Sequence record: AP019559
DNA: 64,000 bases
Strand: one strand, 5' to 3'
Source: Escherichia phage SP15
Shown here: positions 30,415 through 42,901 of the stretch, in pieces
Position numbering within the stretch: position 1 is the stretch's first letter
Layout of the letters: every line of letters starts with the position of its first letter
The notes under the pieces: model-generated
The model's input: the letters and a program-made list of their open reading frames with translations, nothing else
Databases searched by the model: none
What the model was told of the DNA's origin: nothing
Translations under genes and position numbers: made by a program

Positions 30415-30499
30415 AAGGAACAGAAGGATTTGAACCTTCACGAGATAGACCATTTATCTCAACCGCTTTTAAGGTATATTTCTAGGAGTGGATGTTCCT
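30415..30499 (-). other. degenerate tRNA-like element
   Basis: Perfect 7-bp acceptor AGGAACA/TGTTCCT, T-arm GAAGG-TTCAAAT-CCTTC, variable-arm-like hairpin; no canonical D or anticodon arm; no CCA. Confidence 0.4.
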
Positions 30500-30552
30500 A
30501 GTAAACCTATTCGGCAGTCCCGTCTACCAATTCCGGCATATTCCAAGAATTT

Positions 30553-30726
30553 TTATAAACCAGCAGAAGCCTCATTTAAAGCATCAACAATAGCTTCACG
30601 TTGGGTCATTCCATACCCAGTGGAATCTAGGTGTGGCAAATAAGCCATCCATCCCTTATCTGTTTCATGAAGGCATGCTTTAAATTTTTTACCGTCCTTC
30701 ATTGTTACAGTAACTGTTTTGCTCAT
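30553..30726 (-). CDS. hypothetical small protein (57 aa, below ORF-track cutoff)
   Basis: ATG with AAGGAA RBS, fills the gap between tRNA genes. Confidence 0.4.
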   Translation of the reverse strand: MSKTVTVTMKDGKKFKACLHETDKGWMAYLPHLDSTGYGMTQREAIVDALNEASAGL

Positions 30727-30746
30727 AATGATTCCTTATAGTTAAT

Positions 30747-30836
30747 TGGAGGAAGGTAATGGAGTCGAACCATCACCGTATCACTACAGCGGGCTAGTTT
30801 TCAAGACTAGTTGCGTACCACTACGCCCTACCTTCC
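30747..30836 (-). tRNA. tRNA-Ser (TGA), class II
   Basis: Hand fold: loop CTTGAAA, long variable arm. Confidence 0.8.
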
Positions 30837-30843
30837 ATTTGTT

Positions 30844-30934
30844 TGGCGGAAGAGGAGAGATTTGAACTCTCAAGCCGTTTTACCAGTCAGCCACTTTCCA
30901 AGCGGTTTTCGTCGCCAATTCGATTTGCTCTTCC
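30844..30934 (-). tRNA. class II tRNA, anticodon unresolved (possibly Ser GGA)
   Basis: Acceptor GGAAGAG/CTCTTCC and T-arm resemble tRNA-Ser; D/anticodon region does not fold canonically by hand. Confidence 0.4.
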
Positions 30935-31046
30935 AAAAATAAGATGATGCCTCTATCACACCAGGCAGTTACGCCCCGCTGGGATTCGAACCCATTAAAA
31001 CAGCTCAACCGAGATAGTAGGTTTAATTTACTCTGACCATCAAATT

Positions 31047-31123
31047 TGGTGCGTGACAAGGGATTCGAACCCTCAAAACCCGACTTCTAAGGACGGTATG
31101 TATGCCAATTCCATCAATCACGC
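31047..31123 (-). tRNA. tRNA with anticodon TAG (Leu by anticodon) but class I architecture
   Basis: Hand fold: loop CTTAGAA, 5-nt variable loop, discriminator A. Confidence 0.55.
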
Positions 31124-31128
31124 GTATT

Positions 31129-31207
31129 TGGTGGAGGATAACGAATTCGAATCGTTCTGATGTCCTCGGTGCAAGCGAGGTGTCCACTCCCAGCAGACCC
31201 ATCCCCC
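31129..31207 (-). tRNA. tRNA-Ala (TGC)
   Basis: Hand fold: G3-U70 wobble in acceptor, loop CTTGCAC. Confidence 0.7.
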
Positions 31208-31492
31208 AAAATCTTTAGTTTACTAAGGCTATTAGCTCGGCGTAACTACAGCACCTTCGCTTCGAGCGGAAGGAACTACGTCATCTCGCAAACCCGATAC
31301 ACTATTCAGTTGCCGCTGAATCTAGTGGACTAATCTAGAACCTCTCCCGAGTCATAGGGATCGTGCTTTTTGGCAGCCAGTCCTAGGTCGAGCTAATACC
31401 TTAGTGAACTATGATGAGGATTTCTCCTCATCAATTTATATAAACATTATATCAAGAAATTAAGCATTAAGCAACTGAATTTCTTATTTAAT

Positions 31493-31566
31493 TGGTACTC
31501 AGTAGTGGAATCGAACCACTGCAACCACCGTGTAAAGATGGAGTTCTACCATTAAACTAACCGAGC
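31493..31566 (-). tRNA. tRNA-Val (TAC)
   Basis: Hand fold: loop TTTACAC. Confidence 0.7.
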
Positions 31567-31719
31567 AAAAGACGTTCTATAATATAGGCTTCAGTTATAA
31601 GCTCATAAAACCCTGCGAATATCATTGCAATAGTAAAATTATCTATGATTACTATTGGCTCTTTAATTTTTTGAATGATTAAATAAAACCAGATAGTCAT
31701 ATCTGACTTCCTCGTAATT

Positions 31720-31798
31720 TGGTAGATCGCCTGGGACTCGAACCCAGAACCTTCCGATTAAAAGTCGGATGCTACTAAACCTATTGAGCTAGCGACCT
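31720..31798 (-). tRNA. tRNA-Lys (TTT)
   Basis: Hand fold: perfect anticodon stem, loop CTTTTAA. Confidence 0.7.
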
Positions 31799-31987
31799 AT
31801 TAGTAGCCATTATATACTTCTTTAATAGAATGGACTTTTAAGTAAGGATGATTAATCCCAAACTCCGCCATTACTTCTTTTTCATCTTTTCCATAATGTG
31901 CAAGTAAGGATCTTGAGGTATTATTACCTAAACGTTTGTCATTTACTACTAATCGAAATACTTTCATTTCGAAATCCTCTATTAAAA

Positions 31988-32064
31988 TGGAAGCGGGTGC
32001 AGGAATCGAACCTACCTCTTTCTAGCTTATGAGACTAGCGATCTCTACCAGAGATCTAACCCGC
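31988..32064 (-). tRNA. tRNA, anticodon CAT (Met/fMet/Ile2 not resolved)
   Basis: Hand fold: loop CTCATAA; acceptor pairing ambiguous at the 1-72 position. Confidence 0.6.
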
Positions 32065-32071
32065 AATTGTT

Positions 32072-32147
32072 TGGTCAGTGCGGCAGGACTCGAACCTGCG
32101 ACCCGAAGCATCCAAGGCTCCCACGCTACCAACTGCGCTACGCACTG
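32072..32147 (-). tRNA. tRNA-Pro (TGG)
   Basis: Hand fold: perfect acceptor CAGTGCG/CGCACTG, loop CTTGGAT. Confidence 0.8.
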
Positions 32148-32156
32148 TTAATTCTT

Positions 32157-32354
32157 TTATTGTGGGGGGATATTAATAATTCGTCCATCTACACAATAAA
32201 CGGTACTAGGGATTGTACTGTATATGTAGAAATTCTTTATATTACTCTCTCCGCCACAGAAATTTTTAGCAAATTCATACTCTTTATTAATGGTTGAGTC
32301 AAGTTTAAAACAACCAGTAAGTAGGAATACAGATAGCAATAAAACTTTCTTCAT
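32157..32354 (-). CDS. small lipoprotein
   Basis: 65 aa, signal peptide with lipobox 'LLTGC'; early-type promoter upstream. Confidence 0.5.
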   Translation of the reverse strand: MKKVLLLSVFLLTGCFKLDSTINKEYEFAKNFCGGESNIKNFYIYSTIPSTVYCVDGRIINIPPQ

Positions 32355-32564
32355 TTTGCTTTCCTTCTCTTCACTTTATAAAATATATTATACAGAGAAT
32401 TAAGTAAAATAGCAAATGAATTTTTAATAAATTTACTTATTGTGTAGGCCACCTGGAGGCTATGAACCCCACGGCTGACAAAGAAGTTTGCGAGACTTCT
32501 CTTAAAAGCCAGAATAGACCCGCCGATCTATCGGAACCTACATAATAAGTAAACTTTATAGTGT

Positions 32565-32640
32565 CATTCTAGACAGGACTCGAACCTGTTATCACTTGTG
32601 CGGACTTACGAGAACCATTCTTTCACTCGAATCGAACGAG
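32565..32640 (-). other. degenerate tRNA-like element with two T-arm-like hairpins
   Basis: ACAGG-TTCGAGT-CCTGT and CTCG-TTCGATT-CGAG hairpins; no canonical anticodon arm. Confidence 0.35.
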
Positions 32641-32807
32641 CTTCTGCCCTAGCCAAGCTGGTTTCCCCATCAACCACGCTAGAATGTTTGATTGTTTTCA
32701 GTGCAAGAGTCCGAGTCTTGGACACGACCGCTTCGCAAGTACATAGGCAGCTTATCATGAGTCAGCACTTCCGAATTGCTAGCCCCGTGTTCTGCACTGA
32801 AATTTTA

Positions 32808-33155
32808 TTAGTTTAACCGTAAAGTATTATCTACTTCACCATTAATTGTTCGGCATTCCTCTGGGATTGCTGGTGTAGCCTTGTATTCCCACCACTCAGC
32901 ACCATCATATTCCCCACGTTCTAGCCAAGTTCCATCGGCAAACCATACATTACCATAAAGTAATTGTCCACCGTATCCAGAATCATATTCAAAGTCTAGG
33001 TTATTAAGAAACCCCTCAATGTCTTCTTCTGTATAACCTAAAGGTAATACCCAGACTTTTTTGTCCCCATAATACCCAAATTCTATTTTAATACACTTAA
33101 CTTTAGAATTGGTATTTTTTAAGGCGAGTAACAGCTCTTCTTTAGCATTACGCAT
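32808..33155 (-). CDS. hypothetical protein
   Basis: 115 aa, Trp/Tyr/Gly-rich. Confidence 0.5.
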   Translation of the reverse strand: MRNAKEELLLALKNTNSKVKCIKIEFGYYGDKKVWVLPLGYTEEDIEGFLNNLDFEYDSGYGGQLLYGNVWFADGTWLERGEYDGAEWWEYKATPAIPEECRTINGEVDNTLRLN

Positions 33156-33180
33156 AGTATATTCTCATACTGAATTAAGT

Positions 33181-33257
33181 TGGCGCGACCGATGGGATTT
33201 GAACCCACATTCTCTCCCGTGACAGGGGAGTACCATTACCAAGCCAGCCCCGGTCGC
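33181..33257 (-). tRNA. tRNA-Asp (GTC)
   Basis: Hand fold: perfect acceptor GCGACCG/CGGTCGC, loop CTGTCAC. Confidence 0.8.
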
Positions 33258-33266
33258 ATAATTCAT

Positions 33267-33452
33267 TTACTCAGCTTTGAGTTTTTCAATAGCTGCATTA
33301 AGTTCTTTAAGAAACTCTTTTCGTACATTAAGACGATTGAGACTTACTAGTATATCGTGTTTAAGTTCTTCGATGTATTTCTTTTCAACTTCAATATTGT
33401 TGATAGTGCTATCACGATGAACTTCTAGCTGCGCAATTACATTCTTGGACAT
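33267..33452 (-). CDS. small coiled-coil protein
   Basis: 61 aa. Confidence 0.5.
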   Translation of the reverse strand: MSKNVIAQLEVHRDSTINNIEVEKKYIEELKHDILVSLNRLNVRKEFLKELNAAIEKLKAE

Positions 33453-33554
33453 GCTTGTTTCCTCAGTTATTAATGAAAATGGTATCTGTGGCTGAATTCG
33501 ATGTCAGCAATGATAGCTGGTTGGCTACCGGTTTACTTAACTCTACACAGAATT

Positions 33555-33637
33555 TGGCGGGCCGTGTAGGATTCGAACCTACGTTGTCTTTCGACATGGA
33601 TTAACAGTCCACCGCCAAACCGCTTGGCTAACGACCC
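33555..33637 (-). tRNA. class II (long variable arm) tRNA with anticodon GTT (Asn by anticodon), discriminator G
   Basis: Hand fold is clean: D-stem GCCA/TGGC, anticodon stem GTGGA/TCCAT, loop CTGTTAA, variable hairpin GTC-GAAA-GAC, T-arm GTAGG-TTCGAAT-CCTAC. Confidence 0.6.
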
Positions 33638-33789
33638 TAAATTTATATTGCTGACTAGGATTTTCACCTAGACGGAGTTAGCACCGTAGCGTGTAGCGGC
33701 ATACCTCTCCAAACCGTGCCTCATCTTTCAATTACGGAGACAGTGTTCCTACGCGTGCCTGAATTGATTCAACAATTCTTCCAGCAAAT

Positions 33790-33865
33790 TGGACGACCGC
33801 ATGAGATTTGAACTCACATAAAAAGGATTTGCAATCCTTCGCCTAAGCCCTTCAGCCAACGGTCG
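33790..33865 (-). tRNA. tRNA-Cys (GCA)
   Basis: Hand fold: perfect anticodon stem AAGGA/TCCTT, loop TTGCAAA. Confidence 0.75.
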
Positions 33866-33934
33866 GTTTATCTTGTTCTGTCATGTTGCTTCTCCAGTTC
33901 AATTTATGTAATTATTATACAGAACTTTTGGAAA

Positions 33935-34207
33935 CTAAGCAACTACATTTTTTAAGAATTTGATGCCTTTCTTTTTCTTCTTATATTTCCACGTTAATGG
34001 ATTCTGTCGATTATGAACGCTTGAGATCTTTGTCTCGTCAAAGTTCTTCAATATCATGTAATCACAGGATAATTGTTCTAGTAGAATGTGATCACCGTCA
34101 AAAGCGTATACATAAGGCTGTTGACTAACACGATAATGATAGACTTTGTTAATTCTACGTTTCAGCGACTTATCAGCGCAGTAAATAAAGAAGTTTTCAG
34201 GATGCAT
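33935..34207 (-). CDS. hypothetical basic protein
   Basis: Track ORF 33935..34222 (TTG start) trimmed to the ATG at 34207 with AAGGAG RBS. Confidence 0.5.
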   Translation of the reverse strand: MHPENFFIYCADKSLKRRINKVYHYRVSQQPYVYAFDGDHILLEQLSCDYMILKNFDETKISSVHNRQNPLTWKYKKKKKGIKFLKNVVA

Positions 34208-34224
34208 CAGCAGCTCCTTCAATT

Positions 34225-34299
34225 TGGTGCACCCTGTTCGTATCGAACGAACCTCTCAAGCTCTTCAGGCAAGCGCTAATCCATCTCAGCTAAAGGTGC
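34225..34299 (-). tRNA. tRNA-Phe (GAA)
   Basis: Hand fold: U8-A9, D-stem GCTG/TAGC, loop CTGAAGA; two U-U mismatches in anticodon stem. Confidence 0.55.
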
Positions 34300-34305
34300 A
34301 AATTT

Positions 34306-34382
34306 TGGCAAACCTACTAGGACTCGAACCTAGACCGTACGGTTTTGGAGACCGACATGCTGTCCAGTAACACTCTAGGAAT
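34306..34382 (-). tRNA. tRNA-Trp (CCA)
   Basis: Hand fold: loop CTCCAAA, perfect T-stem; acceptor has two U-U mismatches. Confidence 0.55.
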
Positions 34383-34390
34383 GCAGAAAT

Positions 34391-34467
34391 TGGCGTCCTG
34401 TGCGGGGATCGAACCCGCAAATCCTACCTTGAAAGGGTAGTGACTTTACCAGTTTGTCTAACAGGAC
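34391..34467 (-). tRNA. tRNA-Glu (TTC)
   Basis: Hand fold: all four stems perfect, loop CTTTCAA. Confidence 0.85.
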
Positions 34468-34474
34468 TTAAATT

Positions 34475-34565
34475 TGGTGTTGGATGATGGAGTCGAACCA
34501 CCCGAGACCCTTCCGAGTCGGCAGATTTACAGTCTGCTTCGCTACCTCTACGATACTAATCCAAC
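34475..34565 (-). tRNA. tRNA-Tyr (GTA), class II
   Basis: Hand fold: perfect acceptor GTTGGAT/ATCCAAC, anticodon arm GCAGA-CTGTAAA-TCTGC, long variable arm. Confidence 0.75.
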
Positions 34566-34630
34566 ATATTTAGAAGTATTCAAAAATTCTCATTTAAACA
34601 CTTTTAAATATGTTTTCAAATTAGGTAACT

Positions 34631-34687
34631 ATTATACCAAGTTTTAAGGCACTGAGCAAGTCAAATTTTAAAGAACTTGCTCAGTGC
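34631..34687 (-). promoter_or_regulatory. early promoter for the tRNA cluster overlapping a 13-bp perfect inverted repeat
   Basis: Minus strand TTGCTC, 17 nt, TATAAT (34631-34659); inverted repeat GCACTGAGCAAGT 34649-34661 / 34675-34687. Confidence 0.55.
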
Positions 34688-34695
34688 TATATTAG

Positions 34696-34971
34696 TTAGT
34701 CGAACTTAGGAGTGACAGTTAAGGAGAACGGAAGTTCGAAAACTTCTTCACCCTCATTACTAACGGTAACTACACGACCTTTAAGTTCAGACATTAAAAT
34801 ATCAATATCAGCTTTTGCATCTGGAGCCATACCAGCTTCAACACATTTAGCTTTAACTTCCGGCAGAAGTTCGACATCGTAGAAATAAAGCCATTCAATC
34901 TCACCTTCCCAGCCTTCCCAGGATTTACAGATTGCACTTTCAATACCAGTTGCTACAACACGATTTTGCAT
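34696..34971 (-). CDS. hypothetical acidic protein
   Basis: 91 aa. Confidence 0.5.
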   Translation of the reverse strand: MQNRVVATGIESAICKSWEGWEGEIEWLYFYDVELLPEVKAKCVEAGMAPDAKADIDILMSELKGRVVTVSNEGEEVFELPFSLTVTPKFD

Positions 34972-35061
34972 TCGTTAACTCCTTCATCAATTTATACAAC
35001 TATTATATCAGAAATTTAAAGCAAAAGGCAAGTACATTTTTAAAAATTCTGTTTGGAGGAG

Positions 35062-35268
35062 CTAAACTCCAGATTCTTCAGCTAAGTCTAGGCTAATAAG
35101 AGTTATAGCCATAATTGCTGCACCGTGTTCTTTTTCTCCGGTGTTTTTAGCAGAGTCTATAATAGTCTTAATCTGTTCGTAATAGCCTTTTACTTCTTGT
35201 TCAATACCTGCCTCGGCTATCATGCCTTTAGTCATGATTCGTTGCATAGTAATTTCACGGTTAGCCAT
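35062..35268 (-). CDS. hypothetical protein
   Basis: 68 aa. Confidence 0.5.
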   Translation of the reverse strand: MANREITMQRIMTKGMIAEAGIEQEVKGYYEQIKTIIDSAKNTGEKEHGAAIMAITLISLDLAEESGV

Positions 35269-35428
35269 GATGTTTCTCCAGCTTCATTTTTAATAGTTTA
35301 CAAATGAAATCAACGTCTTCATCTGTACCTAGATCTCTATCTTCAAGAGTTGCCTTGAAGTTTTTAGTCAATTCCATGAGGATAACTTCTCTAGAACGAC
35401 GTGTTGGCGGAGGTGGATGTCTATACAT
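35261..35428 (-). CDS. hypothetical small protein (55 aa, below ORF-track cutoff)
   Basis: ATG with AAGGAAATAAG RBS; 8-nt overlap with the downstream gene. Confidence 0.35.
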   Translation of the reverse strand: MYRHPPPPTRRSREVILMELTKNFKATLEDRDLGTDEDVDFICKLLKMKLEKHHG

Positions 35429-35443
35429 CTTATTTCCTTAGTT

Positions 35444-35520
35444 TGGTAGGGGTGGTGGGATTCGAACCCACAAAACCTGAATTTTAAGTCCAGTACCTAT
35501 GCCAATTCGATTACACCCCC
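35444..35520 (-). tRNA. tRNA with anticodon TAA (Leu by anticodon) but class I architecture
   Basis: Hand fold: good acceptor and T-stem, loop CTTAAAA, 5-nt variable loop, discriminator A. Confidence 0.55.
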
Positions 35521-35527
35521 GTGTAGT

Positions 35528-35716
35528 TTAGTCAATTACTTTTGAGGCTTCAAGGTAGTCGATATAGTGTATGTTTTCTACCGTAATCATATAATCTGTC
35601 ACTTTATCCATAGCTTGGGCTTCAGAGGTAGCTCTGGCTAACCTATATCCTTTTTTATATTCATCCGGGTATTCTCTATCTTGGATAAACACAACATAAA
35701 CTATATATAGATCCAT
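35528..35716 (-). CDS. hypothetical protein
   Basis: 62 aa. Confidence 0.5.
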   Translation of the reverse strand: MDLYIVYVVFIQDREYPDEYKKGYRLARATSEAQAMDKVTDYMITVENIHYIDYLEASKVID

Positions 35717-35735
35717 TTGTGACCTCTATTTAATT

Positions 35736-35813
35736 TGGTGGCTCCCCGAGGATTCGAACCTACGTACCTTCCGGTTATGAGCCGGGTGCTCATACCATAT
35801 GAGCTTGAGAACC
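35736..35813 (-). tRNA. tRNA, anticodon CAT (third copy)
   Basis: Hand fold: perfect D-stem GCTC/GAGC, loop CTCATAA; weak T-stem. Confidence 0.5.
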
Positions 35814-35819
35814 AGAATT

Positions 35820-35908
35820 TGGCGGAAGAAGCGGGAATCGAACCCACAAGGCTATATTTCAAACCGACAGATTAGCAATCTGCTGCAATACCGTTATGCT
35901 ATTCTTCC
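35820..35908 (-). tRNA. tRNA-Ser (GCT), class II
   Basis: Hand fold: perfect acceptor GGAAGAA/TTCTTCC, loop TTGCTAA, long variable arm. Confidence 0.75.
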
Positions 35909-35929
35909 GAATTTATAAGATATATTATA

Positions 35930-36448
35930 TTAGAAATTTAGCTTCATAGCAAGAAAATTTTTCAAGTTTTCGGTAGACATCTCATCCACATCTACGGGAG
36001 AAACAAAGCCGTTTAATTTTCTAGCAAATTTTTCACCCGCAGGATCATTATCTCCGACAGCTACCAATTTAAAAGGTAGTAATTTCAGTTGCTTTAATAA
36101 CGCTTTTCCTGGAGAAGAACCCAACATTGCTAGGGCTGGATAACCAGCATTATGTAACGCAACTGCCTTAAATACAGATTCAGCAATCAATACTACTTTT
36201 TCATCTCCATTGAGAGTTTCTAGTCCCCATACACACTGGGTAGTAGAATAAGTAAAGTATTTAGCTTCAAAGGGGCACTTACCATGACCTTTTGGAGCAG
36301 AAGGATTATAAGTTTGATAGCCCCTCAACATCCCAGAGAAGTCATACAACGGGACTGTTAGCCATCCTTCCGGACTTAACCAGCAATGATATTTATCTGT
36401 ATCAAATCCTCTAGATAAGAGGTGCTGTGTTAGCTCATCAACATTCAT
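35930..36448 (-). CDS. TOPRIM-domain protein (small primase or nuclease-like)
   Basis: Track ORF 35930..36499 trimmed to the ATG at 36448 (AAGAGGAA RBS); conserved Glu in 'LIAESVF' and 'VGDNDPAGE' DxD motif. Confidence 0.5.
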   Translation of the reverse strand: MNVDELTQHLLSRGFDTDKYHCWLSPEGWLTVPLYDFSGMLRGYQTYNPSAPKGHGKCPFEAKYFTYSTTQCVWGLETLNGDEKVVLIAESVFKAVALHNAGYPALAMLGSSPGKALLKQLKLLPFKLVAVGDNDPAGEKFARKLNGFVSPVDVDEMSTENLKNFLAMKLNF

Positions 36449-36623
36449 ATTTGGTTCCTCTTTCAAATTTATAGATATATTATACAGAGAATTTAGCATT
36501 CAAGCAATCAAATTTTTTAACTTTTTAGAGGAAAATCATAGGGCACTTAAGGATAGCAGATAAGTGGTGAGGACCAAAATTTGTGACCCCACTAAAAATT
36601 CAGGGGCAATTTTTAAAGACCCC

Positions 36624-36652
36624 TTGACATTTTCGCTGGGGTAGTGTAAAGT
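36624..36652 (+). promoter_or_regulatory. sigma70-type promoter for the plus-strand three-gene module
   Basis: Consensus TTGACA, 17-nt spacer, TAAAGT. Confidence 0.55.
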
Positions 36653-36713
36653 ATATGTTATGGATGAGTGATCAAAGAGACACACATTTTCTATATACTA
36701 GGAGGTGTCAAAA

Positions 36714-37697
36714 ATGACAGAAGAAGTAGCTAAGAGTCCTGAGACCGTCGCTAGCGTTGCAGCAGAACTGCACCGTCACGAGGAATCAGATAAGAAAAAG
36801 TGGGAGAAGGTCAGAGCCTACGAAGAAAAACATCGTGAACACGATGATGAAGAAGATGACGATGAACATTGTCATAAATATGGAAAACATAAAATGCAAG
36901 AACCAGTAAACGTATTTACTAGTGGCTTCCCTGGCCTACTGGGTGGTTACCCAGCAAACGCAGGTGCTTTCGGTGGTGAAGGTATGGGACTATTCGGAGC
37001 TATCCTAATCGGTGCTCTATTAACAGGCGGATTCGGTGGTTTCGGTGGATTCGGTGGACGTGGTGTAGTTGGTGATGGTACCGCAGTTGATGCAGTACTT
37101 CAGAACCAAGATACCGCTAGTATTCTAGCAGCTATTAACACTACTCGTACAGAAGCTAACCAGGGTACTGGAGCTGTTTTAAGCGCAGTTAACAATGGGT
37201 TTAGCCAGACATCCCAAAACCAGAGCCGTGATACTCAGTCTGTACTAACTACGATCTATGGTACAGGTGCTAATCTGTCTAATCAGATCTGTCAGGAAAC
37301 TCGCAACGTTATTCAGGGTCAGTTCGATCTTTCTCGCCAGATTGATCAATCTTTCGCAGCTAATCAGATAGCTCGTGCACAAGATAAGTTTGATTCTGCA
37401 CAGATCGCTTTCCAGCAGACTTTACAAACTAATAACCAGTTTGCCGCTGTTCAGGCTCAGATGTGTGCTAACCAGAACTCTCTGGAACGTCAGATCGCTG
37501 AATGTTGCTGTGAACTTCAGACTGCTATCGCTGGTGTAACTACTGCTCGTATTCAGGATGAGTTAGATGCATGTCGCCTACGTGAAGCAATCGCTGCGGG
37601 TAACGGTGCTAACGGTCAGGTAATTAATCAAATCGCTGTAAGTCTTGGTGCTATCACTCAGACTCTGGCTGGTCTGCAGGCTAAACTGCCGGCTTAA
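36714..37697 (+). CDS. glycine-zipper membrane protein with long Q/N/A/T-rich helical domain
   Basis: Track ORF starts at a GTG at 36705; ATG at 36714 has AGGAGG 8 nt upstream; 'GGFGGFGGFGG' hydrophobic Gly-rich segment; 'CCC' near the C-terminus; host-like codon usage. Confidence 0.6.
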   Translation: MTEEVAKSPETVASVAAELHRHEESDKKKWEKVRAYEEKHREHDDEEDDDEHCHKYGKHKMQEPVNVFTSGFPGLLGGYPANAGAFGGEGMGLFGAILIGALLTGGFGGFGGFGGRGVVGDGTAVDAVLQNQDTASILAAINTTRTEANQGTGAVLSAVNNGFSQTSQNQSRDTQSVLTTIYGTGANLSNQICQETRNVIQGQFDLSRQIDQSFAANQIARAQDKFDSAQIAFQQTLQTNNQFAAVQAQMCANQNSLERQIAECCCELQTAIAGVTTARIQDELDACRLREAIAAGNGANGQVINQIAVSLGAITQTLAGLQAKLPA

Positions 37698-37718
37698 TAT
37701 TAAGGGGAGGAGCCCATT

Positions 37719-38135
37719 ATGAGTAAATATGGTTTTGTAAATAACGGACTTAATCAAAGTATGGGCTCCCAGCAGCCCATTCCGGGTCTGGATAACCCCT
37801 ACTTACAACAATTGCAACAGCGTTTAGCAGAAGCGCAACAGATGCAACAACAACTCCAGCAAAACCCTGGAAGTGTGAGTCCTATGCAAATGATGCAGCA
37901 AATGAGCGGGCAGTCGCAAATGCCTCAACAAATGCAGCAACAGATGCCGCAGCAGCAAGTTCAGCAGCAAACCCAACAACCGCAGGTTTCTGCGGAAGGA
38001 CAGGCAGTACTAGCCCTTTTCGAAGACTTCACAAAGACAGAGGATGGGAAGCAGCTTGTATCACTTATGGGTAAGTTTAATAGCTTCTGCCAAAGCCAAG
38101 TTGCAAAAGCTCAAAATGGTGGTAATAACTCCTAA
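37719..38135 (+). CDS. Gln-rich low-complexity protein
   Basis: 138 aa with poly-Q/M stretch; RBS GGGGAGGAG. Confidence 0.55.
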   Translation: MSKYGFVNNGLNQSMGSQQPIPGLDNPYLQQLQQRLAEAQQMQQQLQQNPGSVSPMQMMQQMSGQSQMPQQMQQQMPQQQVQQQTQQPQVSAEGQAVLALFEDFTKTEDGKQLVSLMGKFNSFCQSQVAKAQNGGNNS

Positions 38136-38144
38136 GGAGAAATT

Positions 38145-38339
38145 ATGTGTTGCAGAAAACCTGTTTCGTGCTGCCCAATGCCTGTAGCACGTTGTTGCTC
38201 TCCAGCAATGTTTACACAAATACCGGCGTTCAATCCCTTTGCCTTTAAGCCTACTCTTATCCTGCCCCCTAGAGTAGATTTTCAGTCAAGATTGGCCTCC
38301 CGTATGGGTGGTTGCTGTACACCGAGAGTGTGGTTCTGA
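38145..38339 (+). CDS. Cys-doublet-rich small protein
   Basis: 64 aa with four CC doublets; RBS AAGGAGA. Confidence 0.5.
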   Translation: MCCRKPVSCCPMPVARCCSPAMFTQIPAFNPFAFKPTLILPPRVDFQSRLASRMGGCCTPRVWF

Positions 38340-38354
38340 AGAACCAAACAATAA

Positions 38355-38390
38355 AGCCCCTAGTCGAAAGACTTAGGGGCTTTTCTGTAT
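38355..38390 (+). terminator. Rho-independent terminator
   Basis: 11-bp stem with one bulge around a GAAA loop, followed by TTTTCTGTATTT. Confidence 0.65.
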
Positions 38391-38394
38391 TTAA

Positions 38395-38436
38395 GATAAA
38401 AGAAAAGCCCTGCGCTCTCCAGGGAACGCAGGGCTT
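38395..38436 (-). terminator. Rho-independent terminator for the SPFH gene
   Basis: 10-bp stem AAGCCCTGCG/CGCAGGGCTT; on the minus strand followed by TTTTCTTTT. Confidence 0.65.
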
Positions 38437-38459
38437 ACTTCAGATGTTACATGCGGATA

Positions 38460-39407
38460 TTATTTATTACGCATATCCATGATCATTTGACCATCGTAGC
38501 CAGTACCTACCACAGTCTGTGGTACACCACCTTGATATTTCTGAGCACGAATCATTTCGACTTCCAGTTGTTTCCAACGAATCATCTCAGGAGTAATGGT
38601 ACGTTGCAGTGCGGCGTTAGCTTCAGCTTCTTTCTTAGCTGCGTACAGTTTAGCATCTGCGTCACGTTCATTAGCGATAGCTTGGTTGTTGCGAGCTTCA
38701 CGATCTGCTTCTGCTTGTTTAACTTTTTGCTGTGCTTCCTGTTCAACACGAGCTAATTCAGCTTTAGCAGCATTAACCTGTTCTTCACGAACTTTGGTAT
38801 TCTGTACCTGTTCCATGATTACCGGTGGCAAAGTAATATCCTGAAGGAATACCTGCTTAACTGTGTAACCATATGGGCGTGCATACTCTTCAACTTCCTG
38901 TTGAATTGCAGTTTGCAATTGAGCCTGAATTTTAGCATCAAACAAATCTTGTGCTTTAGGTACAGACTTACCAAACTCACGAATAGTAGACAGTAATTTT
39001 TCAGTTACATATTTGTCTAACGCTTGATCCTGAGTACCTGCGTTAATACGGTTAATTGGTGCCTTAGAACCATCAAACTGCAACATAACAGTCAGGTCAA
39101 CAGTGGATTTAAACTTATCCTGGCTAGGAACCTGAAGTTTATCTAATTTTACAGCAATATCTTTTGTACTAAAAGTGTCGAAAGATGCAAATGGGTTTAC
39201 AAGATGGAAACCTGGTAATACTGGGTTAGGATCTACTTTACCCAGAAATGTTTGGGTTTTAACCGTACCATCAGAAACAATAGTATATGAATTAAAGGCT
39301 AGAATCAAGCCTGCTAAACCAACTACAGCACCAATACCCCAACGTTTAATAGTACGAATTACTTTCTGCTCAGAAGTCAGTTCTTTCATATTTTTAGTAT
39401 TAAACAT
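38460..39407 (-). CDS. SPFH/band-7 (stomatin/prohibitin/HflK-C-like) membrane protein
   Basis: N-terminal transmembrane helix, central SPFH-like region, C-terminal A/E/Q-rich coiled-coil; host-like codon usage. Confidence 0.7.
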   Translation of the reverse strand: MFNTKNMKELTSEQKVIRTIKRWGIGAVVGLAGLILAFNSYTIVSDGTVKTQTFLGKVDPNPVLPGFHLVNPFASFDTFSTKDIAVKLDKLQVPSQDKFKSTVDLTVMLQFDGSKAPINRINAGTQDQALDKYVTEKLLSTIREFGKSVPKAQDLFDAKIQAQLQTAIQQEVEEYARPYGYTVKQVFLQDITLPPVIMEQVQNTKVREEQVNAAKAELARVEQEAQQKVKQAEADREARNNQAIANERDADAKLYAAKKEAEANAALQRTITPEMIRWKQLEVEMIRAQKYQGGVPQTVVGTGYDGQMIMDMRNK

Positions 39408-39441
39408 ATATTTCCTTTGTTTTAGTTACAGTTAATAAAAT

Positions 39442-39516
39442 TGGCCGAGGTGACAGGATTCGAACCTGCATAAAGGAATTTAGAAGACTCCTGCCTCTCC
39501 CTTAGACTACACCCCG
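39442..39516 (-). tRNA. tRNA-Arg (TCT)
   Basis: Hand fold: acceptor CGGGGTG/CACCTCG, loop CTTCTAA, discriminator G; isolated from the main cluster. Confidence 0.7.
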
Positions 39517-40018
39517 TTTAAATATTTTTAAGAACTCTCGTAAAAACTCTTAAAAATACAGACGATACCGGGAGAGTCATAAGTCTCACTCATTAAGTAT
39601 TTCAAGACAAAATACAGTAACGTCTATTATTTTCCAGTTTAAGTCAGGGTGACTTAGTGGTTAGGTCCTGCGGTATATTGAGGACTCGGTTAGGCTTGGG
39701 GTCATGACTTCCCGCCTTTTGCTGCTACTCAACAGGAGTTATCGCGAATTACCTGTGCTATTGTGCACCATTAGTGACATCTCTCATGTCAGCATTTCCC
39801 ACTTTGTGGATAGCTTGAAAAACTACTCCGATATGGAGAAAAAACTTCACTATCCTAGAATACCTTCTAAAGTTCTTCTTTAGCCTGGACATAGTTAAAT
39901 CGTAATAAAACTATTCAGCAGACTGGTTGGTTAGCCTGGAACCAACTACCGCGTGGTTTAGGCAGTGCGCAACTAACCTCGGAAGCTTTTACGTTAAAAG
40001 CATCAGTTATCCAGTTCT

Positions 40019-40090
40019 TACCGACCGTAGGATTCGAACCTATATCTTCCACCAGTTACGGCTTGATAATACCAATTATACTAGGACGGC
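40019..40090 (-). other. degenerate tRNA-like element inside an ~800-bp non-coding region
   Basis: Acceptor-like pairing GCCGTCC/GGTCGGT and T-arm TAGG-TTCGAAT-CCTA; no canonical anticodon arm. Confidence 0.35.
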
Positions 40091-40328
40091 AGTGTTACTA
40101 CATAAGTGATTTCCACACCCCACTATTTATAAATTAGAGAAGAGTTTAGGGGAGAGGTTTCAGACGCCTCATTTTACACGTTCTAGCCACTAACCGGGAT
40201 TGCCGCCCCCTGTGTACTAGTTTTACAACTAACCTACCGACTCTATTCAACGAATCTTAGTGCTCGACGCATCTTACATTAAGACAAGTTCAGCGTAATC
40301 GGCTCGCTGTTCTCTAATTTATGAATAT

Positions 40329-40357
40329 ATTATACAGAATTTATAAGCATTTAGCAA
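40329..40357 (-). promoter_or_regulatory. T5-type early promoter reading into the non-coding leader, tRNA-Arg and the SPFH gene
   Basis: Minus strand TTGCTA, 17 nt, TATAAT. Confidence 0.55.
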
Positions 40358-40365
40358 ATAAATTT

Positions 40366-40809
40366 TTAATTAAATTCACCAGCAATCTGAGCAGCAGTAC
40401 CACCATCATAACGCCCAGGAAATTCTTCCTTAATCGCTTTCATCAGCATACCTTTTGTAATTCCAGGGTTTAGCTTAACTAATTCTGCAAAGTATTTACG
40501 AATCTCAGTATCAGATAACTGAGGGGGCAGATACTCCTGCAACCACTTATTTAGAATGTACTCATACTGAGCGGACTGCAAGCTATAACTATCAAGATCT
40601 TGACCATGAAGTTTAGCTTTCATCTGGTTAATGCTTTTTAGTTGAGCTTTGAGATAAGACACAAATTGTTCAGAAGTGATGAAATCTTTATTAATACGCT
40701 GAAGATCCCCGATTATGGTCTGATAGCTTTTAGCGACTTCTTTATCAGAACCATTAAACTTAGAATCCTGCAAAGCTCTACGCAAAACATCTAAAATATT
40801 CTCTTCCAT
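40366..40809 (-). CDS. hypothetical protein (possible GatB/YqeY-like domain)
   Basis: 147-aa ORF; weak similarity impression at the C-terminus. Confidence 0.45.
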   Translation of the reverse strand: MEENILDVLRRALQDSKFNGSDKEVAKSYQTIIGDLQRINKDFITSEQFVSYLKAQLKSINQMKAKLHGQDLDSYSLQSAQYEYILNKWLQEYLPPQLSDTEIRKYFAELVKLNPGITKGMLMKAIKEEFPGRYDGGTAAQIAGEFN

Positions 40810-40979: not shown

Positions 40980-41047
40980 ATTTCGCTTCCTCTCATTAAT
41001 TTATGGAAGTATTATACGGAAATTTAAGTATTTAAGCAAGTAAATTT

Positions 41048-41515
41048 TTAAGTTTTAGTGACAACAGGTTTATAAAACGTATGTCCCTTAATCTTAGTTG
41101 TTTTCTTAAACTTCTTTGTCCAGTAAGGTTTATCTTTACCACTATGGAAGTATAGTGCTCCATGTGTAGGATCTTGTGGTAAATCAACGTAGTATATCAC
41201 TCTAGCTAAATTCTTAGCGGTTTGCCAAGCCTCATCAGTTTTATCAACTTTTGGTCTCTTAGATACCCAAGAGAACTGGTTAGACTGATATACTACTTTA
41301 CAGTAGGAATCTGGGAATTTACCGGAGTTTACACGGTTTTTAGTAACGTGTGCAATCGCCGTCATTCCCTTTATGCCCTCACCACGACTTTCGAAATAGA
41401 TATTTTTAGCAATGCAATCTATTTCTTTTGCATCGTGCGATGCCTGACTACTAAAGCTGAAGGTAAGGGCAGCTACTAAAAGCAAAGCTGCCTTCATTCT
41501 TTTTACTCCTGCCAA
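41048..41515 (-). CDS. secreted cell-wall hydrolase, SleB/CwlJ-like
   Basis: Signal peptide; 'FESRGEG...AIAHVTKNRV...VVYQSNQFSW' resembles the cell-wall hydrolase family. Confidence 0.6.
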   Translation of the reverse strand: MAGVKRMKAALLLVAALTFSFSSQASHDAKEIDCIAKNIYFESRGEGIKGMTAIAHVTKNRVNSGKFPDSYCKVVYQSNQFSWVSKRPKVDKTDEAWQTAKNLARVIYYVDLPQDPTHGALYFHSGKDKPYWTKKFKKTTKIKGHTFYKPVVTKT

Positions 41516-41820
41516 TCATATTCAACACGATTGGGGTTTTCTTTGTACCCTAAGTCAAGCAAATCATTACGCATATGTTGCTTAGCTACTGGGTTCGAGG
41601 TTACTAGTACCACTTTCTTTGGTCTCTGCCCAAATTCTAAGAGTAAACGAAGAATTTGATAACCTTCCATACCATCTACAGCCAAGTCATTATCCATATA
41701 AACGAAGTGGCCTGTGGTATCAGTTTTATTCAGAAACTCGACAGCGGCTTCTGGGGTTCGAATGATAATGTCCATTCCGTGAAGATTACGCACATCATCA
41801 ATCAAAATATGAAAAGTCAT
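41503..41820 (-). CDS. hypothetical protein (possible receiver-like fold)
   Basis: 105-aa ORF; assignment weak. Confidence 0.45.
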   Translation of the reverse strand: MTFHILIDDVRNLHGMDIIIRTPEAAVEFLNKTDTTGHFVYMDNDLAVDGMEGYQILRLLLEFGQRPKKVVLVTSNPVAKQHMRNDLLDLGYKENPNRVEYDWQE

Positions 41821-42262
41821 AATAGCCTCGTTTCATCAATTTAAAAATATATTATACAGATAACTTAGTAAATTAGCAAATACATTTTTAAATTGTGAAA
41901 CTAGTAAACCGATAAACAGCCTAGAGGCGCCACAGGCCATATCTTATGAGCCATGTACCTTTGATCTAGGGTTTGAATCATCAACGAATACTTTGCATCT
42001 TTTAGCTTTAGAAGTTTAGAAGTTTGAGTTCTTTAAACTTTTCAGCTTTCATACTTAAATGTTGATCTTTGAAGTTGTGTCGGTAATATCAACGACGCTT
42101 TGTTCTTACGTGTCAGCTTAAAAGGCTGGTGTAATAAACATAATCTCCAATAGATTATACTTTATAGTATGGTCAGCGGTCTTATTTAACCTCGTATTTC
42201 AACCGCTGCTGCGAGGTAAGATGCTTGGGCTTTCGTCTACCGATTTACTAGCTTTTAAATTA

Positions 42263-42901
42263 TTACTCTACTTCAATGAAGGTAGAGGCGTTAGACTCGG
42301 ACAGAACAAAGTCAACATTTGTTGCAAAGTCCTGGTATTCCTCGTCATGCTGCTTAATCAGCTTTTCCAGTTCCAGCGGATCAATCAAGAATGGAGTATT
42401 CTTGAGTTCCAGCAGGTTGAGCTGCATTTTAACTTCATCTTCGGAAGTTTTCTTATCGCGGGTAGCCATGCTATCCTGCAAACGCTCATATTTAGCATCA
42501 AACTGTGCTTTCTGCGTATTAAACTTAACCGTAGCGGCATGGAACTGCTTACGCATGTTAGCCAGCAGTTGAGCTTTAAGTTCCATAGAACGCTTAGCTT
42601 CAATTGCTTCCGCAACAGTCATCTTACGAGAACCGATCTCAACGATTGTTTCTGCATTGCTCTTAATCAGAGCAGATTTAATACGATCACGCCGAGACAT
42701 CATATCCAGCAGAGATTGGAAATCAGTCTTAATACGAGTAGACAGATCAGCTACTTCGATTGCAGCGCCAACTACAACCTGGTTTTTATCCTTACCTTCA
42801 CCAACAGCAATCAGAAGATGTTGTTCAGTAGCTTTACGGATTTTAGCTTCCAGAGATTTGATAGTTGCCAGAGCGCGAGTTTTAGAAATACGAGTAGTCA
42901 T
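42263..42901 (-). CDS. hypothetical coiled-coil protein
   Basis: 212-aa ORF with good codon usage; the overlapping plus-strand 237-aa ORF is rejected. Confidence 0.55.
   Translation of the reverse strand: MTTRISKTRALATIKSLEAKIRKATEQHLLIAVGEGKDKNQVVVGAAIEVADLSTRIKTDFQSLLDMMSRRDRIKSALIKSNAETIVEIGSRKMTVAEAIEAKRSMELKAQLLANMRKQFHAATVKFNTQKAQFDAKYERLQDSMATRDKKTSEDEVKMQLNLLELKNTPFLIDPLELEKLIKQHDEEYQDFATNVDFVLSESNASTFIEVE

What the first reader, a model, noticed from the sequence alone, without database searches (positions are those of the whole stretch)
41048..41515. Second lytic-type enzyme: secreted SleB-like cell-wall hydrolase
Besides the cytoplasmic endolysin, the window encodes a signal-peptide-bearing hydrolase with SleB/CwlJ-like motifs, expressed from the early strand. 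It could act during DNA entry, in periplasmic remodelling, or as an exclusion factor.
Basis: partly seen in the sequence, partly recalled or inferred. Interest (0 to 1): 0.45.

Follow-up and report, generated by a model that had tools for sequence, protein, structure and literature searches.

The report
Exported SleB-fold wall hydrolase of T5-like phage
The gene is real and encodes a small exported cell-wall-cutting enzyme with the SleB fold, but it is the already annotated T5.083 gene found in nearly all T5-like phages, so the finding is correct but ordinary; only its biological role is still untested.

Summary
Window 41048..41515 (-) is a genuine gene. Its likely start is the ATG at 41497 (149 aa), not the TTG at 41515.

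What it encodes:
- A Sec-type signal peptide (MK-AALLLVAALTFSF-SSQA|S).
- One full Hydrolase_2 domain (Pfam E 2.4e-25).
- The catalytic Glu (E36, YFESRGE), which is invariant in relatives.

Context:
- The window is a T5-like phage, 99% identical to phiLLS.
- The gene is the ortholog of T5.083, already labelled "cell wall hydrolase SleB", "spore cortex-lytic enzyme" or "endolysin" in hundreds of genomes. Published genome papers already note it as a second lysin far from the holin.
- The canonical holin and EndoT5 peptidase cassette lies 20 kb away.
- It is not an SleB ortholog: it scores 50 bits against an equivalog cutoff of 236, and it has no peptidoglycan-binding domain.
- It is under purifying selection (dN/dS about 0.1) and is near-core in enterobacterial T5-like phages.
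- It was "Not Fit" in a published T5 knock-down screen.

Most likely role (inferred): a holin-independent periplasmic lytic transglycosylase that assists lysis or loosens the wall. A role in DNA entry is unlikely. Novelty: already known. Interest: low.

The parts
41048..41497 (-). Coding sequence of the exported Hydrolase_2 (SleB-fold) enzyme. It is 149 aa, and the stop codon is 41048-41050. It is the ortholog of T5.083.
   Evidence: ORF list. Pfam PF07486 E 2.4e-25. Identical to the phiLLS protein and 4 aa different from T5.083. dN/dS 0.08-0.19.
41498..41515 (-). The 18 nt included in the finding's ORF (TTG start) that are most likely 5' UTR. They contain the Shine-Dalgarno GGAG (41506-41509) and the stop codon TAA (41503-41505) of the upstream gene.
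   Evidence: The sequence reads TTGGCAGGAGTAAAAAGA-ATG. Orthologs are annotated from the ATG.
41441..41497 (-). Predicted Sec signal peptide, residues 1-19 (MKAALLLVAALTFSFSSQA). Signal peptidase I cleavage is predicted after Ala19.
   Evidence: Hydrophobicity and the -3/-1 small-residue rule. An equivalent hydrophobic N-terminus is present in 139 of 150 sequences scanned (149 nearest cluster representatives plus a Bacillus SleB control), and in the orthologs it ends in A/S-x-A just before the domain.
41072..41383 (-). Hydrolase_2 catalytic domain as matched by Pfam (residues 39-142 of the 149-aa protein). The structural domain starts at about residue 20.
41390..41392 (-). Codon of Glu36 in the motif Y-F-E-S-R-G-E, the predicted catalytic general acid.
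   Evidence: It aligns with the Glu of YGESRGE in SleB chain 4F55_A. It is invariant in 34 of 34 homologs and in all 149 aligned sequences of the 150-sequence alignment, the remaining one having a gap at that column.
41414..41416 (-). Codon of Cys28, one of the only two cysteines. It is a putative disulfide partner of Cys66.
   Evidence: Both Cys are present in 147 of the 149 nearest representatives. Both are absent in Bacillus SleB and in the rV5-like and Pakpunavirus homologs. The disulfide itself is inferred, not shown.
41300..41302 (-). Codon of Cys66 (motif Y-C-K-V-V-Y-Q), putative disulfide partner of Cys28.
   Evidence: Invariant column in alignment A1.
41851..41879 (-). Sigma70-type promoter-like site TTGCTA-17-TATAAT with an A/T-rich upstream stretch. 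It probably drives the two-gene unit of the cREC gene plus the hydrolase.
   Evidence: Consensus scan gives 10 of 12 matches. Sequence. A promoter is annotated at the corresponding place in T5 (43067-43141). Function was not tested here.
41503..41820 (-). Upstream co-oriented gene (105 aa, T5.084 ortholog) with a cREC_REC domain. It is translationally coupled to the hydrolase gene but is probably functionally unrelated.
   Evidence: Pfam PF20274 E 1.5e-14. The adjacency is lost or interrupted in NR01, DU_PP_V and the Klebsiella T5-like phage.
41011..41039 (-). Promoter-like site TTGCTT-17-TATAAT that begins 9 nt downstream of the hydrolase stop codon (41048-41050). It corresponds by position to T5 promoter P-D/E 33 and starts the next unit. 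No terminator separates the two.
   Evidence: Sequence. T5 annotation. No terminator-like site was found in 40300-42400.
20309..21375 (-). Context: the canonical lysis cassette, 20 kb away. It comprises the EndoT5-type L-alanyl-D-glutamate peptidase (20309..20722, no signal peptide) and a T-type holin (20719..21375).
   Evidence: ORFs. Pfam Peptidase_M15_4 and Phage_holin_T (E 2e-112). T5 lys and C1 annotation.

Best explanation
The gene is the T5.083 ortholog of a T5-like phage. It encodes a 149-aa precursor. The Sec system exports it, and signal peptidase I most likely cleaves it after Ala19.

Cleavage would release a basic 130-aa periplasmic enzyme (about 15 kDa, pI about 9.7) that consists only of an SleB-type (Pfam Hydrolase_2) catalytic domain. 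By analogy with SleB, it cuts the MurNAc-GlcNAc bond of peptidoglycan as a lytic transglycosylase. Glu36, at the end of the first helix, would act as the single catalytic acid. A Cys28-Cys66 disulfide formed in the periplasm probably stabilises the fold.

The gene is transcribed with the early genes from a sigma70-type promoter, independently of the holin. The enzyme therefore reaches the wall before lysis. Its most likely role is an accessory one: it pre-loosens or co-degrades the glycan strands, so that the holin-released EndoT5 peptidase (which cuts the peptide stems) and the spanins finish lysis quickly and completely.

What is shown: the gene, the signal-peptide features, the domain, the fold, catalytic-residue conservation, separation from the lysis cassette, purifying selection and near-universal presence in T5-like phages.

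What is inferred: cleavage site, disulfide, transglycosylase chemistry on E. coli murein, early timing and the accessory-lysis role.

My estimates: identity about 0.95, export about 0.85, transglycosylase chemistry about 0.6, accessory-lysis role about 0.4-0.45. The overall confidence given (0.45) is that of the weakest link, the role.
For: Identity and fold:
- Pfam Hydrolase_2 E 2.4e-25 over the full profile, and PHROG 938.
- SleB catalytic domains 4F55/4FET are the only significant PDB sequence hits.
- Catalytic Glu36 and His139 are invariant.

Export:
- The signal peptide has classic n, h and c regions.
- Export signals are conserved in feature, not sequence, across orthologs and 139 of 150 sequences scanned.
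- A conserved Cys pair is found only in the exported subfamily.

Separation from the lysis cassette, and likely early expression:
- The gene is 20 kb from holin and EndoT5.
- It is syntenic with T5.083 in the T5 early region, with annotated promoters.
- Promoter-like sites were found here.

Functional constraint:
- dN/dS is 0.08-0.19.
- 518 records carry the hydrolase and 525 carry the T5-type endolysin, both at >=60% identity.

Link to lysis:
- In Chaseviridae, an exported Hydrolase_2 protein sits directly after the holin and is annotated as the endolysin.
- Hydrolase_2 is a recognised lysin domain of Gram-negative phages (PMC8223927).

Dispensability:
- T5.083 is "Not Fit" in CRISPRi-ART, as is lys, while the holin is "Fit" (PMC11879866 supplement). 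This fits an accessory or redundant role, but knock-down may simply have been incomplete.
Against: - No biochemical or genetic data exist for this protein or any phage Hydrolase_2 enzyme. I found no phage member in the PDB and no functional paper.
- Bacillus SleB needs muramic-delta-lactam, which E. coli murein lacks (established knowledge), so activity on the host wall is assumed, not shown.
- An active wall-cutting enzyme exported early should risk premature lysis, and no restraint mechanism is identified.
- Placement among early and nucleotide-metabolism genes in several unrelated phages could point to a non-lysis function instead.
- The knock-down screen saw no fitness effect.
Confidence: 0.45

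Rival explanations
1. Non-lytic periplasmic remodelling. The enzyme is made early to open or thin the sacculus for a purpose other than final lysis. Examples are allowing trans-envelope phage complexes such as spanins to assemble, changing cell growth or division, or altering envelope permeability during infection.
For: - The gene sits in the early region behind a sigma70-type promoter and is not linked to the holin.
- The same exported Hydrolase_2 architecture lies among early or nucleotide-metabolism genes in other phages: rV5-like next to rIIA/rIIB, Pakpunavirus, and metagenomic phage contigs.
- Bacterial lytic transglycosylases commonly serve such space-making roles (established knowledge).
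Against: - No partner gene is conserved next to it; contexts differ between lineages.
- In Chaseviridae the homolog is in the lysis cassette.
- Lambda-type spanins need no dedicated transglycosylase (established knowledge).
- There was no fitness effect on knock-down.
Confidence: 0.2
2. Functional back-up endolysin. The exported hydrolase and EndoT5 are redundant, and either one suffices for lysis after holin triggering. This would explain why knock-down of lys alone has no fitness cost in T5.
For: - In CRISPRi-ART the holin C1 is Fit, while lys and T5.083 are both Not Fit.
- The two genes co-occur in essentially all enterobacterial T5-like records, 525 versus 518.
- Guzel et al. 2024 raise the question of which of the two lysins these phages use.
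Against: - Incomplete knock-down of an enzyme needed in small amounts explains the lys result equally well.
- The spanins were also Not Fit, so the screen seems insensitive to most lysis genes.
- EndoT5 is the biochemically characterised T5 endolysin (my own knowledge: Mikoulinskaia et al. 2009).
Confidence: 0.15
3. Superinfection-exclusion or competition factor. The periplasmic enzyme alters the wall so that later-arriving phages fail to inject, or it acts on neighbouring cells after release.
For: Only circumstantial: early expression and a periplasmic location, as for known exclusion proteins such as T5 Llp or T4 Sp/Imm (established knowledge).
Against: - No match to any defence or exclusion model (PADLOC).
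- Known exclusion factors block receptors or inhibit incoming lysozymes rather than degrade murein.
- The catalytic machinery is strictly conserved, as in lysins.
Confidence: 0.06
4. Entry enzyme. The hydrolase helps the phage genome cross the wall at infection.
For: Many phages carry a wall-degrading activity for entry.
Against: - The gene lies far outside the first-step-transfer DNA, so it is expressed only after the genome has entered.
- A Sec signal peptide directs the protein away from cytoplasmic virion assembly.
- The gene is in the early region, not the structural region.
- T5 already has a muralytic activity in tail protein Pb2 (cited in PMC3326045).
Confidence: 0.03
5. Inactive relic or mere peptidoglycan-binding protein. 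The domain is retained but no longer catalyses anything relevant in Enterobacteria, because the SleB substrate (cortex muramic-delta-lactam) is absent.
For: - SleB substrate specificity (established knowledge).
- No fitness effect on knock-down.
Against: - Strong purifying selection, dN/dS about 0.1.
- The catalytic Glu and other hallmark residues are invariant in all 149 aligned sequences of the 150-sequence alignment.
- The gene is near-universally retained in T5-like phages.
Confidence: 0.05

Closest known systems
T5.083 of Escherichia phage T5 (NC_005859 42290..42739) and its orthologs in Tequintavirus, Epseptimavirus and other Demerecviridae. They are annotated as "cell wall hydrolase SleB", "spore cortex-lytic enzyme precursor" or "endolysin".
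   Same: - Same gene, length (149 aa), position and neighbours (T5.084 cREC upstream, T5.082/T5.081 downstream).
- 4 aa different from T5.083 and identical to the phiLLS protein.
   Different: Nothing of substance. The finding's start codon is 18 nt upstream of the annotated one.
Bacillus SleB and CwlJ germination-specific cortex-lytic enzymes (catalytic-domain structures 4F55, 4FET).
   Same: - Same catalytic-domain family and fold.
- Same catalytic Glu motif Y-x-E-S-R-G-E.
- Like CwlJ, it is a single-domain protein.
   Different: - About 30% identity.
- No N-terminal PG_binding_1 domain.
- Fails the SleB equivalog model, 50 bits versus a cutoff of 236.
- Has a Cys28/Cys66 pair that is absent in SleB.
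- The host has no spore cortex, so the substrate must be ordinary murein.
Exported Hydrolase_2 endolysin of Chaseviridae (for example Yersinia phage PYps23T ORF079).
   Same: N-terminal export signal plus a Hydrolase_2 domain with the same Cys pair.
   Different: There the gene directly follows the holin and is the annotated endolysin. Here it is 20 kb from the lysis cassette and a separate peptidase endolysin exists.
Second, non-cassette Hydrolase_2 genes of rV5-like (Vequintavirus), Phapecoctavirus and Pakpunavirus phages.
   Same: - Exported or anchored Hydrolase_2 protein encoded among early genes, in addition to another lysin.
   Different: - 35-41% identity.
- These proteins are longer (166-186 aa) and lack the Cys28/Cys66 pair.
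- The Pakpunavirus N-terminus looks more like a membrane anchor.
Sec-exported and SAR endolysins (Lys44 of Oenococcus phage fOg44; P1 Lyz and phage 21 R21). This comparison rests on my own knowledge.
   Same: Holin-independent export of a wall-degrading enzyme that must be kept harmless until lysis.
   Different: - Different catalytic folds.
- Those enzymes are the phage's only endolysin.
- SAR domains are uncleaved, roughly 20-residue, Gly/Ala-rich anchors. Here the h-region is 13 residues and is followed by an S-Q-A cleavage motif.

Membership tests
Pfam Hydrolase_2 (PF07486), SleB-type catalytic domain | Score above the curated gathering threshold over the whole profile. | tested here: met
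   89.5 bits versus a cutoff of 27, covering profile positions 1-100 of 100.
Pfam Hydrolase_2 (PF07486), SleB-type catalytic domain | Catalytic glutamate in the Y-x-E-[SA]-R-G-E motif, aligned with the SleB catalytic Glu. | tested here: met
   Glu36 aligns with the Glu of YGESRGE in 4F55_A. It is invariant in 34 of 34 homologs and in all 149 aligned sequences of the 150-sequence alignment, the remaining one having a gap.
Pfam Hydrolase_2 (PF07486), SleB-type catalytic domain | Three-dimensional fold of the SleB catalytic domain. | tested here: met
Pfam Hydrolase_2 (PF07486), SleB-type catalytic domain | Lytic transglycosylase activity (1,6-anhydroMurNAc products). | not testable with these tools
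   Needs purified protein and muropeptide analysis.
SleB proper (NCBIfam TIGR02869 spore_SleB equivalog) | Equivalog score cutoff. | tested here: not met
   50.3 bits versus a cutoff of 236.5. Only model positions 79-201 (the catalytic part) match.
SleB proper (NCBIfam TIGR02869 spore_SleB equivalog) | N-terminal peptidoglycan-binding domain preceding the catalytic domain. | tested here: not met
   Pfam finds only Hydrolase_2. Just 19 signal-peptide residues plus a few more precede the domain.
SleB proper (NCBIfam TIGR02869 spore_SleB equivalog) | Spore-former context and a muramic-delta-lactam cortex substrate. | tested here: not met
   The genome is a T5-like phage of Enterobacteria. These hosts make no spore cortex (established knowledge).
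Canonical holin-dependent phage endolysin | Encoded in the lysis cassette next to the holin or spanins. | tested here: not met
   Holin and EndoT5-type peptidase lie at 20309..21375, about 20 kb away. The T5 map is the same.
Canonical holin-dependent phage endolysin | Soluble cytoplasmic protein without an export signal. | tested here: not met
   The N-terminal hydrophobic segment scores 2.61, against 0.70 for the EndoT5-type protein.
Canonical holin-dependent phage endolysin | Required for host lysis. | tested here: inconclusive
   Published knock-down: T5.083 is Not Fit, but lys and the spanins are also Not Fit. No deletion data were found.
SAR (signal-anchor-release) endolysin | Uncleaved, weakly hydrophobic N-terminal transmembrane domain of about 20 residues, rich in Gly/Ala/Ser. 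| tested here: not met
   The h-region is only 13 residues and Leu-rich, and it is followed by polar S-S-Q-A|S with small residues at -3 and -1. This rests on sequence features only. No dedicated predictor was available.
Sec-signal-peptide (secreted) lysin | Cleavable type I signal peptide directly preceding the catalytic domain. | tested here: met
   n, h and c regions and the A/S-x-A motif are conserved in position across orthologs despite sequence divergence. Cleavage itself was not shown.
Virion-associated peptidoglycan hydrolase (entry enzyme) | Encoded in, or fused to, structural (tail or head) genes and packaged in the virion. | tested here: not met
   It is a stand-alone 149-aa protein in the early tRNA-rich region with a signal peptide. 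Virion proteomics could not be consulted because the paper was not held.

The most novel reading that the evidence does not exclude
Exported Hydrolase_2 enzymes form a widespread, unstudied class of early-made, holin-independent periplasmic lytic transglycosylases. They occur in unrelated virulent phages of Gram-negative bacteria (T5-like, rV5-like, Phapecoctavirus, Pakpunavirus and others). They would precondition the sacculus, or act as a built-in back-up for the cassette endolysin. In T5 this redundancy would be the reason why knocking down lys has no fitness cost.
Probability: 0.2. Interest if true: 0.5.

Novelty: already known. Interest (0 to 1): 0.2.

Why it matters
As a sequence feature it adds nothing new. 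The gene is T5.083, it is annotated in hundreds of T5-like genomes, and genome papers already remark on it.

The open point is biological. Many large virulent phages of Gram-negative bacteria keep a second, exported wall-cutting enzyme under purifying selection, outside the lysis cassette, and nobody has shown what it does.

An answer would refine the holin-endolysin-spanin model of lysis. It could also explain inconsistent essentiality data for endolysins, and it would show whether this small, basic, naturally exported enzyme is useful as an antibacterial.

Tried and rejected
- Literature searches for a functional study of T5.083 or any phage Hydrolase_2 enzyme found only genome descriptions and surveys, nothing experimental.
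- The SleB structure paper and the T5 virion proteomics paper were not held. The numbering of the catalytic residue and the absence of T5.083 from virions therefore rest on my memory.
- T5 transcriptome searches gave no timing data for this gene.
- I looked for a conserved partner gene. The upstream cREC gene is translationally coupled here, but it is absent or separated in NR01, DU_PP_V and a Klebsiella T5-like phage, so I rejected a functional pair.
- A plasmid search, asking whether the family is a conjugation-type space-making transglycosylase, gave only weak hits, mostly on alphaproteobacterial megaplasmids. It was uninformative.
- PADLOC gave no hit for the exclusion idea.
- T5_ev219 was examined as a possible deletion variant. 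It is simply another T5-like phage that keeps the gene.
- The Cys28-Cys66 distance could not be measured, because model coordinates are not returned.
- Rfam found nothing but the tRNA in the surrounding 8 kb.
- ORFs on the opposite strand or nested within the gene (41222..41479 +, 41032..41187 -) have no support and were treated as spurious.
Full report
**1. The observation**

The minus strand carries an ORF at 41048..41515, 155 aa from a TTG. The true start is almost certainly the ATG at 41497. The sequence upstream reads TTGGCAGGAGTAAAAAGA-ATG. This places GGAG 8 nt before the ATG, and the TAA within it is the stop codon of the upstream gene 41503..41820. Every ortholog, including T5.083, is annotated from this Met. 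The product is therefore 149 aa, and the finding's 5' end is 18 nt too long.

The protein begins MK-AALLLVAALTFSF-SSQA|SHDAKE. This is a short basic n-region, a 13-residue Leu-rich h-region and a polar c-region with small residues at -3 and -1, which is a textbook signal peptidase I substrate. The h-region's maximum 11-mer Kyte-Doolittle score is 2.61, against 0.70 for the window's EndoT5-type endolysin. There is no lipobox and no twin arginine.

**2. What the protein is**

- Pfam gives a single full-length Hydrolase_2 match: PF07486, E 2.4e-25, 89.5 bits against a cutoff of 27, profile positions 1-100 of 100. PHROGs gives family 938, "endolysin".
- The only significant solved relatives by sequence are the catalytic domains of Bacillus cereus and B. 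anthracis SleB (4F55, 4FET; E about 1e-8). The Glu of the phage motif YFESRGE aligns with the Glu of SleB YGESRGE.
- An AlphaFold2 model built on 34 homologs is confident (mean pLDDT 90.9, pTM 0.82).
- The protein is not an SleB ortholog. Against the NCBIfam equivalog spore_SleB it scores 50 bits where 236.5 are required, and it matches only the catalytic half. It also lacks the N-terminal peptidoglycan-binding domain.

**3. Where it sits**

The window is a T5-like phage. The 3.5 kb around the gene is 99.0% identical to Escherichia phage phiLLS (Tequintavirus), and 449 phage records match it. The gene is the ortholog of T5.083 (NC_005859 42290..42739). It has the same neighbours (T5.084 upstream, T5.082 and T5.081 downstream) and lies just past the large tRNA cluster. 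The protein is identical to that of phiLLS and differs from T5.083 at 4 residues.

GenBank records already call it "cell wall hydrolase SleB", "spore cortex-lytic enzyme precursor", "cell wall hydrolase" or "endolysin". The "endolysin" label is a PHROG carry-over, as the re-annotation table of the CRISPRi-ART paper shows.

The canonical lysis cassette is also in the window, 20 kb away:
- an EndoT5-type peptidase (20309..20722, Peptidase_M15_4, no hydrophobic N-terminus);
- a T-type holin (20719..21375, Phage_holin_T, E 2e-112).

In T5 the spanins follow the cassette at T5.044 and T5.045. So [quoted passage not shown] is correct.

**4. Transcription**

A sigma70-type site, TTGCTA-17-TATAAT (41879->41851), lies upstream of the cREC gene, where T5 has an annotated promoter. 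A second site, TTGCTT-17-TATAAT (41039->41011), begins 9 nt downstream of the hydrolase stop codon, where T5 has P-D/E 33. No terminator-like hairpin lies between them. The hydrolase gene therefore looks like the second gene of a short early-type unit.

Early timing is inferred from the T5 map and the promoter type. I found no time-resolved data for this gene.

**5. Is it a working gene?**

- Pairwise dN/dS between the window gene and orthologs from T5, TrudiRoth, NR01 and a Klebsiella T5-like phage is 0.08-0.19.
- The signal peptide diverges in sequence but keeps its features: S-Q-A, S-H-A, S-Y-A and A-Q-A before the domain.
- About 518 phage records carry an ortholog at >=60% identity, against 525 carrying an EndoT5-type endolysin at >=60%. 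It is therefore a near-core gene of enterobacterial T5-like phages. The two record sets were counted, not intersected.
- Family-wide, a scan of 1.84 billion cluster representatives found 14,485 relatives at E<=1e-3.
- The alignment held the 149 nearest representatives plus a Bacillus SleB catalytic-domain control, 150 sequences in all. Glu36 is E in 149 of them, with one gap. His139 is H in 149, with one Asn. 139 of the 150 carry an N-terminal hydrophobic segment.
- Among the 149 representatives, 147 have both Cys28 and Cys66.
- Those are the only two cysteines in the protein. Both are missing in Bacillus SleB and in the rV5-like and Pakpunavirus homologs.
- A conserved Cys pair restricted to the exported subfamily suggests a periplasmic disulfide. 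That is an inference, because I could not obtain model coordinates to measure the distance.

**6. Comparative context**

Metagenomic relatives sit on phage-like contigs among nucleotide-metabolism and other early-type genes such as Thy1, RNase H, Metallophos, ribonucleotide reductase and UvdE. In rV5-like phages the homolog lies next to rIIA/rIIB. In Pakpunavirus it lies between a DNA ligase and phosphohydrolases. All of these carry N-terminal export or anchor segments.

In Chaseviridae, by contrast, an exported Hydrolase_2 protein follows the holin and is the annotated endolysin. So the family can do the endolysin's job, while in several large virulent phages it has become a second, non-cassette enzyme. 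The upstream cREC_REC gene is translationally coupled here. It is separated by an HNH endonuclease in NR01 and absent from that position in DU_PP_V and a Klebsiella phage, so I do not treat the two as a functional pair.

**7. Published knowledge**

- The AKFV33 genome paper (2012) lists "cell wall hydrolase SleB" among three early-region lysis-type products (PMC3326045).
- Guzel et al. 2024 point out that T5-like Salmonella phages have an M15 endolysin next to the holin and a SleB-domain "endolysin" far from it. They ask which one is used (PMC11180984).
- Vazquez et al. 2021 list Hydrolase_2 among the lysin domains that dominate in Gram-negative phages, with high positive charge (PMC8223927). 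This fits the basic C-terminal tail here: 10 K/R against 1 D/E in the last 30 residues, and a mature pI of about 9.7.
- A Phapecoctavirus announcement also notes two lytic proteins, GH24 plus Hydrolase_2.
- The CRISPRi-ART screen scored T5.083 as "Not Fit", that is, no fitness loss on knock-down. In the same screen lys and both spanins were also "Not Fit", and only the holin C1 was "Fit" (PMC11879866 supplement). The screen therefore says little more than that the gene is not strictly required in laboratory conditions.
- I found no biochemical, structural or genetic study of any phage Hydrolase_2 enzyme.

**8. Mechanism**

Best-supported reading:
1. The precursor is exported by Sec and cleaved after Ala19.
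2. The 130-aa basic domain folds in the periplasm, probably with a Cys28-Cys66 disulfide.
3. It cleaves glycan strands as a lytic transglycosylase, using Glu36.

Because export does not depend on the holin, the enzyme is at its substrate before lysis. It can then pre-loosen or co-degrade the glycan strands of the sacculus. This would complement the peptide-cutting EndoT5 that the holin releases.

The first-reader options:
- DNA entry is unlikely. The gene is far outside the first-step-transfer DNA (T5 terminal repeat 1-10219), so it is expressed only after the genome is inside. The signal peptide also takes the protein away from virion assembly, and T5 already has a muralytic tail protein, Pb2.
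- Exclusion has no support.
- Remodelling for a non-lysis purpose, and true redundancy with EndoT5, remain live rivals.

The main weakness of any "active early in the periplasm" model is the unexplained absence of premature lysis. A second weakness is that SleB itself needs a cortex-specific substrate, so activity on E. coli murein is assumed.

**9. Verdict**

The enzyme assignment is supported, and the speculative roles are only partly supported. The feature is already known as T5.083 and is annotated throughout the family. What remains open is its role, which needs experiments rather than more sequence analysis. Interest is low (0.2). The most novel reading not excluded is a general class of early-exported phage transglycosylases that precondition or back up lysis. 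It has perhaps a 0.2 probability and would merit moderate interest.

Noticed in passing
window 41503..41820 (-): The gene upstream of the hydrolase (T5.084 ortholog, 105 aa) carries a cREC_REC "cyclic-phosphate processing receiver" domain (PF20274, E 1.5e-14). Its stop codon lies inside the hydrolase's Shine-Dalgarno region. The CRISPRi-ART supplementary text lists T5.084 among "Fit" genes of unknown function, but the data table shows "Not Fit".
   Followed up: partly
window about 39517..40365: About 850 nt without a convincing ORF lie next to tRNA-Arg(tct) at 39442..39516. This corresponds to T5 "RNAX, stable RNA with unknown functions". Rfam at gathering threshold finds only the tRNA.
   Followed up: partly
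window 42263..42901 (-) and 40366..40809 (-): RefSeq names for these early-region neighbours look like unreliable label transfers. The "tail fiber protein" (212 aa) has no Pfam hit. The "tRNA amidotransferase" has only a sub-threshold YqeY match (25.4 bits against a cutoff of 27) and is called "recombination-related exonuclease" in other records.
   Followed up: partly
L012 (Salmonella phage NR01) 1548..2453: In NR01 an HNH endonuclease gene is inserted between the cREC gene and the hydrolase gene. The hydrolase is about 70% identical overall, but its last 37 residues are identical to the window protein. This suggests a recombination junction inside the gene.
   Followed up: no
window 20719..21375 (-): The holin of this T5-like phage is a full-length T4 T-type holin (Phage_holin_T, E 2e-112), the holin class that mediates lysis inhibition in T4.
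   Followed up: no
window 38460..39407 (-): The T5.080 ortholog, labelled "lipoprotein" in RefSeq, is an SPFH/Band 7 family protein (PF01145, E 2e-17) with an N-terminal membrane segment.
   Followed up: no
window 28525..39516 (-): There are 23 tRNA genes, all on the minus strand, as in the T5 tRNA region. Unlike T5, ARAGORN finds no tRNA-Gly and no second tRNA-Ser(GGA) here.
   Followed up: no
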